Program-made: the position numbers and the translations under genes
The notes under the pieces: generated by a model
The model's database searches: none
What the model saw: only the letters and a program-made list of their open reading frames with translations
What the model was told of the DNA's origin: nothing
Assembly: GCA_951406725.2 (NCBI GenBank)
Contig: OX597835.1
Span: 44,144,001-44,208,000 of the forward strand
Source of the DNA: Octopus vulgaris
Taxonomy: Eukaryota
Length of the DNA: 64,000 nucleotides
Direction: 5' to 3'
Part shown: positions 625-42,365 of the stretch, piece by piece
How positions within the stretch are numbered: position 1 is the stretch's first letter
Layout of the letters: each line of letters opens with the position of its first letter

Positions 625-850
625 GTGAGAATTTACAAACAAACAAAAGACGAAGACGAGTGTGTAAGCAACAAACAGATGTATTAGTTTAACGCTTGAG
701 AAGTCAGAAAGTCTTTTACGTTTCGTACCTACGCTCTTCGACAGAAAGGAACACAAAAATAAACAGGGAGAGAAAATAAAAAAAAGGTTTAGTGGCTAGC
801 GATCTACCATGGCGAATGCCGGACAGAGGGGTCACACACGAGAGCTAGGA
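625..850 (-). mobile_element. Family E short repeat with hammerhead-like motif (putative Penelope-derived)
   Basis: Minus strand cctttCTGTCGAAGAGCGTAGGTACGAAACGTAAAAG, then gcgttaaactaatac...cttcgtcttttgt; homologous to copies at 5.9, 30.6, 40.1 and 42.2 kb. Confidence 0.65.
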
Positions 851-2145
851 AGACGTGTATACATATTTATATATATATTTTTCCGTGTTAATTGTTAACA
901 AGGTAAAAATACACTCATCTATTTATATATATATATATATATATATATTTCTTTTCTCCTTGTTTCTCTCCTTGTTTTTTTCTGGGCACTCAACTACGAG
1001 TCCACTGCATCTTACAGCAGAAACAGCTGTAAGCTAATGAAGTGCTTGAGACAATCTTTTAATCTTTTTTCATCTCATTTTATTGAAACGCACATCCTCG
1101 CGCGCGTACCCTCCCCAGAGTTTTATTTTTTGCGACTGAAACCAAATTCTTGTCGCGTCTCGAGCTTTATGGCATTGCGAGTTTCCGGCGCATACATTTA
1201 CGTTGGTGTTATGTTTGTGTGTAAATTACCATGAGTCGCTTGAGGCCTTGAATCAATCAGAAAAAATGTCCTCACCAAGGTGTACGCCATAGAAAATTCT
1301 GGTTGTTTTAAGGGTGATCTGTCGCACCCCACCAACGCCTTCGACAACGTTAGCATCCTTTCTGATACCATCTTGTGTACTAAAATTTCAGACACGTAAA
1401 TAAACTTCGAGGAGACGCAAATGTAAAACAAAGATAAACAGTTAAATGGGTGACGGTAGAAGCCATTGATATATTTCTGGTCAGTAAAATTAATGTTAGT
1501 CATGATATGTCGCATAGTTTGTACGAAAGGGAACTGGATACTTTAAATAAGATAGGTATATTGTTACATTTCTTAAGCCTGTCGTGGATTAAATGGAATA
1601 AAGACAGATTAAGGGAAATAATTACACAGAATAATAATCATTAAACCACATTTGTAAAGGCAACACTATATCAGAGAATAATTTTACCGGTGTTGAGAAG
1701 AGGTTTTGAAGTAGCTAAATTAAATTAGATCGTCGTACAATAGGCATAATAGTTAAATTGAGTCTATTAAAGTATAGTCTGTGTTAAGGAAATAAAAGTT
1801 TACTGCAAATTAGATGATGTTAAAAATAATGGCGACATATTTTATGGAATATTCTACGCTTCGGGAATAAAATGGAAACTGAAAGTTTGTGTGAACGCTA
1901 AGAAAGAGAAAGAAACGTAACGAAGGCAAAATAATTATCGGGAAAGTAAAGCATATTAACACTTTTGGTCCTTCACAGAATCCTAGGGTTCTGTGATAAG
2001 GAATTTATGCTATAAAGTGATTTAAGCTAAAAAATTTCTATTTATTTATCTCTTCAAAATACAGTTTAATAACGACAAAATTACTTTATTAAATCCTGCA
2101 TTTACAAAATGGAAAGAAAGTCAGTGAGTTTCATCAGAATATTAT

Positions 2146-2354
2146 TGGCACAAGGGCAGCAATTTCGAGGGAAGGGGGTTTAAATCGATTACATCGACTC
2201 CAGTGCTCAAATGGGACCTATTTTATCGATCACACCGTACGAAAGGCAAAGTCGACTTCAGCAGAATTTGAACTCAGAACATGAAGGAGATTGATGAAAC
2301 TCCGCTGAGCATTTTGTCCGGGGGGGTGCTATCAACTCTACCAACAAGCCGCCC
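2146..2354 (-). mobile_element. SINE family C, diverged
   Basis: gaaaggcaaagtcgacttcagcagaatttgaactcagaac is the reverse complement of the family C B-box/core. Confidence 0.75.
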
Positions 2355-2383
2355 TTGGGTAATAAAATATATCAACGTTATAG

Positions 2384-2476
2384 GCACTCCGCAAACTGTC
2401 CGTTTTGAGCACTCCGCAAACTGTCCGTTTTGGGCACTCCGCAAACTGTCCGTTTTGAGCACTCCGCAAACTGTCC
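2384..2476 (+). repeat. 25-bp minisatellite, about 3.7 copies
   Basis: Unit gcactccgcaaactgtccgttttg(a/g) starts at 2384, 2409, 2434 and 2459. Confidence 0.9.
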
Positions 2477-3289
2477 ATTGTCCTATGATATGAAGTTTAT
2501 GTTACAGAGTGATCTAAACCAAAATCTTTCCATTTATTTTTCTCCCCACATTTAGTTTAATAAGTTACGAAATTATTTTGCAAAATTCTTCATTGGCAAA
2601 ATTAATTGAAACAAATGCAGTGAATTCAAACAGAAATATTTTAACCAAAGATTTAAAGTGGAAATAAAGAAATAAAATATACAAATAAGAACAGTTGAAA
2701 ATATCTGTATATAAAAAAAAATAGGTTCTCACATTTACAAGCAGGTCCGCTGTAAGTAAATTTATGAGTTGGAAGTGACTATGCGTAAATATATACGCAA
2801 ATATAATTAAAAGAGTTGTACGAAGTAAAAAATAGAGTAAAACATTGAAGATTATATACAATAAGAAAACACACACACACACACACACACACACACACAC
2901 ACACACACATATATATATATATACAGAAGAGGCATGTTTCAATGTGTGACAGTAGTACAAACATAAAAAAACATACATTTGAATAAACTTTGCATGAAAC
3001 GACGAAGGTGGCGTGCAGCTTTCTTTGAAAGACAAGATGACAACCTAGAAAACAACTTCAAATACGAATTTGAATCTAATAAATGGTTACCGAGAAATAC
3101 GCCATTAGTAACATTGAAGGGAGGATGTTTTTTTTTTTTCGTTAATGAATGAAATTTAAGAAGACACGTGTGAAATAGCTTCCAGAGGAATTTGAACATC
3201 AAAATAAGTGGGATATAACACTGATGATCTCCGGAGTCATAGCCTGGAAACACAGTTATTTTGAGAAATGGAATACTAGCATTTGTACG

Positions 3290-3668
3290 TATATATATGT
3301 ATGTATATATATATATGTATATATATATATATATATATATATATATATATATATATATATATATATATATATATATATATATATATATACGTACATACAT
3401 ATATATATATATATATATCTGTGTATATATATATATACATATATATATATATATATATATATATATATATATACATATATATATATATATATATATATAT
3501 ATATATACGTACATACATATATATATATATATCTGTGTATATATATATATATATATATATATATATATATATATATACATATATATATATACATATACAT
3601 ATGTACGTATACACACATAAATATATGTAAATATATGTATATATATATATATATATACCTATATACAT
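3290..3668. repeat. (TA)n microsatellite with higher-order duplication
   Basis: Long TA tract; the interruption block acgtacatac(at)n-ctgtgt occurs twice (~3389 and ~3507). Confidence 0.9.
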
Positions 3669-4064
3669 GTGCTAAATGATGTATTTCTTTTATTTAGCAT
3701 TACTAAAATTTCACACGCATGCGGTGTACAAATACACGCACAGAGTAGCGTAAACGAATGTACGCAGAAATACGCGTATCGGCACCGAGCCCCATTAATC
3801 TATCCACTCAGGTATTATACGTATCGCATAAAGAAGAAGAAAAACGCAAACAAACAAACGTAAAAACACTGCCACAAAAAAATTATTGACAACAGAAAAT
3901 ACAATGGATCCGTGACAGTTGCAACAGTTATTACATCTGAAGAGATGACAGAATTTGTGTTGAAATTCTTTCATGCTCACGAAAAATTATTAAAGAACTG
4001 ATTATATCGAGAAACGGGTGTTATTATTGAGTTGATGCCGGTGCTAATATGTACTCATCACCAT

Positions 4065-40034: not shown

Positions 40035-40265
40035 TAACGGGAATGTTTACGAAAATAAACAAAAGACGAAGGCAGGTGGAGTACAAACAAACAAATGTAT
40101 TAGTATGGCGCTCAGGAATAGAAATAGAACAAGTCTTTTACGTTTCGAGCCTACGCTCTTCAACAGAAAGATACACAGAAAAAAAAAATAAGGAGAGAAA
40201 CAAGGAGAGAAAAAAATGCGTGTAGGAGCAAACGATCTATCATGGCGTCCTGATTTCGGACGTTT
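40035..40265 (-). mobile_element. Family E short repeat with hammerhead-like motif
   Basis: Minus strand tcttt-CTGTTGA-A-GAGC-GTAG-GCTC-GAAA-CG-TA-AAAGA. Confidence 0.7.
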
Positions 40266-40267
40266 AC

Positions 40268-40546
40268 ATATATATGTATATATATATATATATATATATA
40301 TATATATATATATGTATATGTATATGTATATGTATATATATGCGTTTATATATATATATGTATATATATATTTTTTTGTATATGTATATATATATATATA
40401 TATATATATATATATATATATATATACATATATATATATATATATATATATATATATATATATATATATATATATATATATATATATATATATATATATA
40501 TATATATATATATATATATATATATATATATATATATATATATATA
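40268..40546. repeat. (TA)n microsatellite
   Basis: Direct reading. Confidence 0.95.
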
Positions 40547-41094
40547 CGTGTGCATGCACAGCAGAGTCCAAGGTGAATCTGCGCCAAGCAGCTTCACTCT
40601 TCATGCTTTAGCTTCGTTAGTATGCCAACAGCCCGGATACTTACTGATCAGATCTCGTATATATATATATACATATATATATATATATATATATATATAT
40701 AATTTTTTACAACTAAAATTAAGGGTGTCTGAGAGACACCACCATGCCGAGAGACACCACCATGTCAAATCCCTGACTCTAAAAACTACCTTAAATGTTC
40801 ATATCGCACCATGAGATAAGACAGAGGGACAAAATAGACTAGCAAAAAGATTTAGTTGTAAAAAATTATTACCTTTGTATGGTATTTTTCCCATGCTGGC
40901 CACTTGATAATATCGATATTATCCTTATTTATAAATTTACATATATATATATATATATATATATATATATATATATATATGTATATATATATCTGTGTGT
41001 GTGTGTGTGTGTGTGTGTGTGTGTGTGTGTGTGTGTGTGTGTGTGTGTGTGTGTATTTTGTGTGTGTGTGCGCGCATACTCACAGCGTTGATTT

Positions 41095-41642
41095 CCAAAC
41101 AACGTTTGGTTTGTTTAGTCAGACCGTGCTCTGCTTGTCCGAGTGTTTGTCATCCTTTTCGGTTGAGGTATCTCAAAAAACCGAGATACGTGGACTTATG
41201 AACTTGATTGACGGGGGTCTCCGCTGATGTTGCGGATAGATCCTTGTTGATAGTGAGCGATGAACTTGGCTTTACTAGGATTAACAAGTAATCTAACATA
41301 ATGTGCAGCTAATTCTAGACTATGAAGTTATTGGCTGGAGATCGATATTTTATCAGCAGCTTAGCTAAATCAAGAACGTTGTCTACACCGGTTGTTTCGT
41401 GCTGGATGTTCGATCTATGTTCCTTTCGCAAGTATGAAACCTAGGGGTTTCAATTCTCAAGTGATGTTATGAAGACATAATCCAAAGCTATCACAAAGGT
41501 GTCAGTGTGTCATCCTGGAGTACTCAGGCTTTAACTTCAAAGAAACTTGTACCTTTGTCTGGGTAACTTACCATTGATTTGGTGTAGTTATAAAGAATGA
41601 TAATTACTGCTGTGGTTTCCTCAGGAATACCACATACCAGAG
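41095..41642 (-). pseudogene. RTE-group LINE reverse-transcriptase fragment (second family)
   Basis: Minus strand CGIPEETTAVIIILYNYTKSMVSYPDKGTSFFEVKA*VLQDDTLTP../VIALDYV resembles YGIP...SPDGDTxFFxIxAGVLQGDTLAP; later TYLG motif. Confidence 0.75.
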
Positions 41643-42194
41643 TTATTTGAATACTACTGGCACCAGCAAGTCGTCTGAAGATAACATATGTATTAATATA
41701 CAGTGTGTGATTCCCTGAATCTCTCTCTCAACTAATGCGGGACCAAGACACGGATGGTGTGCGCGGATTAAAAATGTCCGACCAAGCTCGACTAGATTAT
41801 GACGATGACACACACGCACACACACGCGCACGAGCACATATACACCTAAAATCAGCACACACGCGTGCACACACACGCACACACATACACACACACACAC
41901 ACTCACAGATATATATATATATATATATATGTATGTATGTATGTGTAAAGAACGTGACAGAAAGCGACACACACAGATAGAAAGGAGCAATGATCACTCA
42001 ATTCTGATGTTAGAGTATATTCGAAGAACATAATAGACATACAGACTCATATAAAAAGATAGACATGTAAACAACCATAAATATACGCAAGATTACGTTG
42101 TAACATATATGGCTTCATCAACAGTATCCTCGCCATGTGTTTGTGTGAGTGTGTGTGTATGTATATATATCACCATGATTAACGGCAAGCCAAT

Positions 42195-42365
42195 AAAGCT
42201 TTTTTATATTCTCTCTCTGCTTATTTTCTTGTGTTCCTTTCTGTTGAAGAGCGTAGGCTCGAAACGTAAAAGTCTTTCTCACCTCCCGAGCGTTAAACTA
42301 ATATACCTGTTCGTTGTTTACACACCTGTCTTGGTCTGTCGATTTTTTGTGAATTCCAACTATAT
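42195..42365 (+). mobile_element. Family E short repeat with hammerhead-like motif
   Basis: ccttt-CTGTTGA-A-GAGC-GTAG-GCTC-GAAA-CG-TA-AAAG at 42236-42272. Confidence 0.7.

What the first reader, a model, noticed from the sequence alone, without database searches (positions are those of the whole stretch)
625..42365. Dispersed family E: five copies of a minimal hammerhead fold with a non-canonical core
Copies at ~718-744(-), 5945(+), 30587(+), 40140-40166(-) and 42241(+) share CUUU-CUGUUGA-A-GAGC-GUAG-GCUC-GAAA-CG-UA-AAAG (best preserved at 40.1 and 42.2 kb). This gives stem I CUUU/AAAG, a 4-bp stem II, the self-complementary ACGU mini stem III typical of dimer-acting minimal hammerheads, and a GUA site. 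The normally invariant A6 of CUGAnGA is U in four copies and C in one, so the change looks ancestral rather than random decay. Either this is a variant ribozyme core, or a catalytically dead fold was kept as the recognition signal for a Penelope RT. Five copies in 64 kb imply a very high genomic copy number.
Basis: partly seen in the sequence, partly recalled or inferred. Interest (0 to 1): 0.7.

Follow-up and report, generated by a model that had tools for sequence, protein, structure and literature searches.

The report
Penelope hammerhead with fixed U6 core
A very abundant repeat in this animal genome, likely the cut-off tail of a Penelope-type jumping gene, carries a hammerhead (self-cutting RNA) motif in which a normally fixed core letter is changed throughout the family, which likely kept spreading afterwards; whether it still cuts is untested.

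Summary
The five copies are real members of one ~190-250-bp dispersed family. Each carries a Penelope-type minimal hammerhead with U (4 of 5) or C (1 of 5) at core position 6. Contigs from four public runs (four organism labels, 4,448-11,080 contigs each) show A6 below 3% in all four, so U6 is the family state. With CpG sites set aside, the only multi-allelic hammerhead positions are N7 and H17 (G17 under 3%), the two that hammerheads leave free. That hints at continued selection after U6 arose, but it is a rough, post hoc signal (p about 0.01-0.1). Homologous sister families in the window keep A6. The 3' ends sit 111-124 nt past A9 at simple repeats (TA-type in 3 of 4) and the 5' ends vary, as expected for Penelope-like insertions. 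No parent ORF was found and cleavage is untested. Most likely this is a weak, protein-assisted ribozyme; rivals are a dead fold bound by the RT, or neutral hitch-hiking. I found natural A6C in print but not a family-wide U6; one key paper was unavailable. The scan had no look-alike of this sequence, but had noted other core-variant hammerhead families in this genome.

The parts
623..866 (-). Family copy 1 (longest 5' part). Hammerhead motif 748-713 with U6 and C7; stem II damaged.
5906..6058 (+). Family copy 2. Motif 5941-5976 with U6; stem II and palindrome damaged; short 5' part.
30542..30679 (+). Family copy 3. Motif 30583-30618 with C6, U16.1 lost; 5' side abuts another repeat; 3' end replaced.
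40040..40268 (-). Family copy 4. Motif 40170-40135, intact apart from U6.
42169..42362 (+). Family copy 5, the reference for the read lay. Motif 42237-42272: stem I 42237-40/42269-72, C3 42241, U6 42244, N7 42245, A9 42247, extra A 42248, stem II 42249-52/42257-60, GAAA 42261-64, H17 42268.
7916..8097 (+). Sister family A: same layout and spacing with the canonical A6 core (C3 7981). Serves as outgroup for polarity.
30919..31121 (+). Sister family B: same layout, A6 kept, U4 changed to C (C3 30985); 72% identical to sister A over 171 nt.

Best explanation
These are dispersed copies of one repeat whose minimal hammerhead motif has U instead of A at core position 6 throughout the family; they are likely 5'-truncated 3' ends of a Penelope-like retroelement, and in the parent RNA the motif likely still works as a weak, protein-assisted ribozyme. 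Shown: family membership, family-wide U6, free N7 and G-avoiding H17, clustered 3' ends 111-124 nt past A9, variable 5' ends, simple-repeat flanks, and homologous sister families with A6. Inferred: the element's RT-endonuclease nicks TA-rich DNA and starts cDNA inside the RNA about 110-120 nt past the hammerhead, so short insertions keep only this tail. U6 arose once in a master element. Tandem parent transcripts would pair two ACGU palindromes and cleave slowly after position 17 with help from the element's protein or a metal such as Mn2+, enough to keep the rest of the core under selection. The isolated window copies are predicted to be inert relics.
For: U6 fixed: the tallies of T>A places (3, 3, 3, 2) and T>G places (1 per run) are fully accounted for by other positions, so A6 and G6 are under 3% in 4 of 4 runs; in run X3 all 8 T>C places are also elsewhere. 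N7 has 39-53% non-U alleles in all 4 runs, so N7 diversified beside a non-A position 6. H17 is A/U/C in X4 and X14, A/U in X3 and nearly all A in X9, and no A>G change reaches 3% at any place in any run. In X3, 0 of 25 constrained non-CpG hammerhead positions vary against 18 of 97 flank positions (Fisher p 0.011). Allele shares differ between organisms (U17 30/2/24/32%, A7 3/24/16/2%), which fits lineage-specific amplification of U6 subfamilies. The layout matches the PLE min-HHR consensus except at position 6. In Poseidon_Ac, reverse transcription starts 111-118 nt after the start of stem II, targets are AT-rich, and the hammerhead cleaves only with protein. Natural A6C retains low activity that Mn2+ rescues.
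Against: No cleavage data. Deep mutagenesis of a type III hammerhead found low activity for all single and double mutants of the CUGA region except the 3-8 swap, and A6C cost over 10,000-fold in Mg2+ in one ribozyme. With all 30 non-CpG hammerhead positions counted, the contrast with the flanks is not significant (2 of 30 vs 18 of 97, p 0.096). Loop II positions 42254-56, which should be free, also do not vary. A U4A subfamily reaches 7.3% and 4.4% in 2 of 4 runs, which suggests the U-turn is relaxing further. The Poseidon_Ac hammerhead was dispensable for insertion in vitro. Shares are depth-weighted contigs at 80% or more identity, and 13 rows of the table were not shown. No parent ORF was found.
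Confidence: 0.45

Rival explanations
1. Catalytically dead fold kept by selection. U6 abolished cleavage, but the Penelope protein recognises the folded hammerhead-like structure or its sequence, so the remaining core letters and stems stay constrained.
For: Position-6 changes are strongly damaging in vitro. Hammerhead mutants did not impair insertion by Poseidon_Ac. A U4A subfamily amplified in 2 of 4 runs. An unchecked scan note describes another family in this genome spreading after catalytic changes (e1-8672774).
Against: In Poseidon_Ac the protein-binding region was mapped to the first 172 nt of the ORF with the 5' end dispensable to +20, so most of the hammerhead was not needed. Avoidance of G17 and freedom of N7 follow the cleavage rule, although G17 could also disturb the fold.
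Confidence: 0.3
2. Neutral hitch-hiking. A master element lost its ribozyme at position 6 and spread anyway. The motif looks conserved only because few masters were active and because the read lay favours contigs that match the core.
For: The whole-motif versus flank contrast is weak (p 0.096). Loop II is as invariant as the core. H17 is nearly monomorphic in X9. Depth falls 5-100-fold in the flanks, so divergent flanks drop out of the table.
Against: The two multi-allelic sites are exactly N7 and H17 among 30 non-CpG positions (1 in 435 by position, 0.023 if any of 5 free sites is allowed; post hoc). The missing allele at 17 is the transition product G. Constrained sites show 0 of 25 variable.
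Confidence: 0.2
3. The repeat is the tail of an unrelated SINE or LINE and the hammerhead likeness is coincidental or mis-registered (for example a core starting three bases later).
For: No Penelope ORF is linked to any copy. Copy 3 can be read with a canonical core in the shifted register (sequence).
Against: The shifted register gives 2 of 4 stem I pairs against 4 of 4 and loses stem II. Homologous sister families carry A6 at identical spacing, with a compensated stem I pair (C-G, A-U, G-C). The same stem II/III cassette is preceded by an A6 core in 53 of 119 scored metagenome matches. No poly(A) or tandem-repeat tail belongs to the element.
Confidence: 0.05

Closest known systems
Minimal type I hammerheads of metazoan Penelope-like elements (Cervera and de la Pena 2014, PMC4209133; read parts 1-2 of 4 and supplement file 2 part 2 of 3)
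   Same: U-rich leader, short helix I, extra base between 9 and 10.1, G10.1-C11.1, palindromic 15.2-16.2 with no stem III, mostly single dispersed copies in the thousands.
   Different: All rows of their Fig. S3 alignment that I saw keep A6 (their descriptor required it); the core change they report is U3-A8. Here U6 is fixed. Helix II is only 4 bp. No parent ORF is linked here.
Poseidon_Ac hammerhead, green anole (Frangieh et al. 2024, PMC11167929; read parts 1-2 of 4)
   Same: Element 3' end about 111-118 nt past the start of stem II, AT-rich targets, minimal hammerhead in the pLTR.
   Different: No position-6 change is mentioned and the ORF starts at stem II. It was shown to cleave with protein. 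The family here has no ATG at that place and no tested activity.
Natural A6C hammerhead of phage Bcep176 (Perreault et al. 2011, PMC3088659, passages and part 3 of 8; Naghdi et al. 2020, PMC7151607, parts 1-2 of 4)
   Same: Natural substitution at core position 6, with low activity in Mg2+ and better activity in Mn2+.
   Different: C rather than U; a single phage ribozyme rather than a high-copy animal retroelement family; not a dimer-type minimal motif.
Animal non-LTR retrozymes (PMC7229834, passages; bioRxiv 10.64898/2026.07.22.740005, parts 1-2 of 5)
   Same: Non-coding, hammerhead-bearing, linked to Penelope pLTRs.
   Different: Retrozymes are defined by tandem units; the five copies here are single, 5'-variable and 2-25 kb apart.

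Membership tests
Hammerhead ribozyme (consensus core) | C3 U4 G5 A6 N7 G8 A9 / G12 A13 A14 / A15.1-U16.1 / H17 | tested here: not met
   All met except A6, which is U family-wide; consensus as.
Hammerhead ribozyme (consensus core) | N7 free, H17 not G | tested here: met
   N7 shows all four bases; H17 is A/U/C with G under 3% in 4 of 4 runs.
Hammerhead ribozyme (consensus core) | Stems I and II closed next to the core, supported by covariation | tested here: inconclusive
   4-bp stems I and II in copies 4 and 5. One stem I pair covaries across three sister families, but there is no compensatory change inside the family. The rod fold is more stable than the hammerhead monomer.
Hammerhead ribozyme (consensus core) | Site-specific self-cleavage | not testable with these tools
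   Needs an in vitro assay; only contigs, no raw RNA reads, were offered.
PLE minimal hammerhead | Extra nucleotide between 9 and 10.1; G10.1-C11.1; palindromic 15.2-16.2 | tested here: met
   Extra A in 5 of 5 copies, G-C closing pair in 5 of 5, ACGU palindrome in 3 of 5; definition.
Penelope-like element | Motif lies in the pLTR of an ORF with RT and GIY-YIG endonuclease | tested here: inconclusive
   No genome held. No PLE domain in 84 of 85 window ORFs scanned or in 110 of 111 ORFs upstream of related cassettes. The protein search with a translated frame of the repeat was empty.
Penelope-like element | 5'-truncated copies with a common 3' end downstream of the hammerhead, inserted in AT-rich or microsatellite DNA | tested here: met
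   3' ends at +118, +111, +124 and +114 from A9 in 4 of 5 copies (copy 3 replaced); 5' ends vary from about -41 to -115.
Penelope-like element | Tandem or inverted insertion structures, optional 30-40-bp tail | tested here: inconclusive
   No tandem pair in the window; one inverted 30-34-nt fragment at 948-981 beside copy 1.
Non-LTR retrozyme | Tandem units each with a hammerhead | tested here: not met
   Five single copies; arrays elsewhere in the genome could not be checked.

The most novel reading that the evidence does not exclude
A naturally evolved U6 hammerhead that still cleaves, made viable by dimerisation plus its retroelement protein or a Mn2+-type ion preference, and maintained across several species in a family of thousands to about a hundred thousand copies per genome. 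It would be an active hammerhead class that standard CUGANGA searches miss entirely.
Probability: 0.4. Interest if true: 0.65.

Novelty: new variant of a known kind. Interest (0 to 1): 0.45.

Why it matters
The role of the hammerhead in Penelope transposition is open: it is present in canonical elements, weak in vitro, protein-assisted and dispensable in one reconstituted system. A family that fixed a change at a near-invariant core base, and apparently went on amplifying in several lineages, is a natural experiment on that question. If it cleaves, the tolerated core is wider than assumed and descriptor searches miss whole families. If it does not, cleavage is shown to be unnecessary while something else keeps the fold. 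Sister families with A6 in the same genome give ready controls.

Tried and rejected
Whole-genome consensus and covariation: no genome held. Exact family motif in metagenome contigs: 0 matches. The prokaryote and viral matches are mostly chance, and none of the 277 loci has CUGU-N-GA. Parent ORF searches were empty. Craig et al. 2021 supplement: its Octopus Hydra and Naiad entries do not match the family motif (line breaks could hide a match). Rfam gave only microsatellite-driven hits in the rows shown. The shifted core register was rejected. MFE folding is uninformative. The copy-number bracket from contig depth (about 2,000-130,000) is too crude to use, and the tool says depth is no copy number. 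Literature searches for a natural U6 hammerhead found none: the one 'A6U' hit concerns twister, and one search listed 20 of 56 papers, none relevant by title. Lunse et al. 2017 on Penelope hammerhead variants was not held and may contain such variants. Supplement file 1 of PMC4209133 was not searchable, and bioRxiv supplements are closed. One search fetched an unrelated paper through a wrong id.
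Full report
Observation. The window is AT-rich (34.6% GC) and microsatellite-rich animal-type DNA. Earlier scan notes call the genome octopus-like; I did not test that. Each has a polypyrimidine leader, the motif, and a 3' part of about 85-95 nt. Position 6 is U in 4 of 5 copies and C in 1. Only copies 4 and 5 are otherwise intact.

Register and family. The motif reads as 4-bp stem I, core, extra A, 4-bp stem II with a 4-nt loop, GAAA, CG, U, H, stem I. 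A core shifted by three bases gives only 2 of 4 stem I pairs. Two more repeats in the window, at 7981 and 30985, have the same spacing with A6 kept (one with C4). They share the downstream motif and are weakly homologous to the family beyond the ribozyme (z 1.0-4.6 over 10 pairs; 9 of 10 at z 2 or more), and the outer stem I pair changes C-G, A-U, G-C across the three families. The extra base between 9 and 10.1, the G10.1-C11.1 pair and the palindrome at 15.2-16.2 are the signature of minimal hammerheads of Penelope-like elements (PMC4209133). In metagenome contigs the same stem II/III cassette was scored in 119 matches. Of the 55 with C3, G5 and GC under 48%, 53 have A6, 2 have C6 and none has U6; 22 have C4. 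About 35 of these come from one family, so the independent sample is small. U6 is therefore most likely derived.

Is U6 family-wide? No assembly was held, so I laid public contigs on copy 5. Of 24 runs listed, 23 held part of the stretch. Four were laid, from four studies and four organism labels, with 10,585, 9,716, 11,080 and 4,448 contigs. Thirteen rows of the variant table were not shown, but the tallies by kind of change close the gap. All T>A and T>G places are accounted for elsewhere in 4 of 4 runs, and all T>C places in X3. So A6 is under 3% everywhere. The adjacent N7 is 39-53% non-U, spread over A, C and G, so N7 diversified next to a non-A position 6.

Was the core still constrained? 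Inside the 36-nt motif the variants at 3% or more are: CpG transitions (mostly 2-9%; the first loop base 8-24%), N7, H17 (A/U/C in X4 and X14, A/U in X3, almost only A in X9) and U4A (7.3% and 4.4% in 2 of 4 runs). No A>G change reaches 3% anywhere, so G17 is avoided although it is the transition product. N7 and H17 are the two core positions that the hammerhead consensus leaves free. By position that coincidence is 1 in 435, or 0.023 if any of five free sites counts (post hoc). In X3, where only one C>T place is hidden, 0 of 25 constrained non-CpG positions vary against 18 of 97 in the flanks (p 0.011). With all motif positions the contrast is 2 of 30 against 18 of 97 (p 0.096), or against 9 of 29 in the near flanks (p 0.018). 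Against this reading: loop II is equally invariant, shares are depth-weighted, divergent flanks drop out of the lay, and a few master elements can mimic selection. Allele shares differ strongly between organisms, which suggests that U6 subfamilies amplified separately in different lineages; that is inference.

How the copies arose. Four of five copies end 111-124 nt past A9 at a TA-type (3) or CT (1) repeat, the sisters at 110 and 130, while 5' ends vary. In the reconstituted anole Poseidon element, reverse transcription starts inside the RNA 111-118 nt after the start of stem II on AT-rich targets, the hammerhead cleaves only with protein, and its mutants still insert (PMC11167929). The match in spacing supports a Penelope origin, but I could not link the family to an ORF. 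Pfam found no PLE domain in 84 of 85 window ORFs or in 110 of 111 ORFs upstream of related cassettes, and a protein search with the translated repeat was empty. Penelope-like elements are reported as expanded and partly still active in Octopus vulgaris, with no mention of ribozymes in the main text (PMC13282606, passages).

Would it cut? Position 6 matters. Deep mutagenesis found low activity throughout the CUGA turn (PMC9901934, passages). The natural A6C variant has kobs under 0.1 per minute, rising to about 0.3 in Mn2+, and A6C cost another ribozyme over 10,000-fold in Mg2+ relative to Mn2+. I saw no measurement for U6. In the monomer, U6 also lets the core strand pair with A14-G16.2 into a rod 2.4-3.4 kcal/mol more stable than the open form, so the single copies here are predicted inert. 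I put 0.45 on a weak, assisted ribozyme in the parent RNA, 0.3 on a dead but protein-selected fold, 0.2 on neutral hitch-hiking and 0.05 on a non-Penelope origin.

Novelty. Penelope minimal hammerheads are known, and so are natural changes at 3/8, 4 and 6 (to C). A family-wide U6 was not found in six searches or in passages of PMC8557442, PMC6765202, PMC7229834 and PMC12192606. Lunse et al. 2017, the paper most likely to list such variants, was not held. The scan holds no look-alike of this sequence but has unchecked notes on other core-variant hammerhead families in this genome, which suggests that core relaxation is common here. Verdict: it works like, and is built like, a Penelope minimal hammerhead; it fails the consensus core at one base; activity is untested. 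New variant of a known kind, interest 0.45.

Noticed in passing
window 7916-8097 (+) and 30919-31121 (+): Two sister repeats with the same hammerhead layout, one canonical and one with C at position 4, 72% identical to each other; all three families share a short motif about 45 nt past C3 that could pair with the 3' strand of stem II.
   Followed up: partly
window 948-981 (+): A 30-34-nt piece of the family's polypyrimidine leader in opposite orientation beside copy 1, possibly an inverted arm of the same insertion.
   Followed up: no
window 26740-27010: Head-to-head inverted pair of a repeat, each arm with a CUGACGA string not followed by a normal stem II/GAAA; it may belong to the rewired hammerheads of earlier scan notes.
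   Followed up: no
window 9768-9801 (-): Another minimal-hammerhead candidate with a canonical core, extra U, longer irregular stem II and poor stem I.
   Followed up: no
window 30441-30520 and 57920-57997: A different dispersed repeat (81% over 79 nt) sits directly 5' of copy 3.
   Followed up: no
window 23954-24394 (+) and 42653-43033 (+): A reverse-transcriptase fragment (RVT_1, E 1.7e-6, below cutoff) and a mariner transposase HTH fragment.
   Followed up: no
L001, L002, L012, L016 and others among L001-L120: A repeat family in metagenome contigs of animal-like DNA carries the same cassette with C at position 4 in 22 of 55 scored copies.
   Followed up: partly
window 42242: A subfamily with U4 changed to A on top of U6 reaches 7.3% and 4.4% in two runs but under 0.5% in the other two.
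   Followed up: partly
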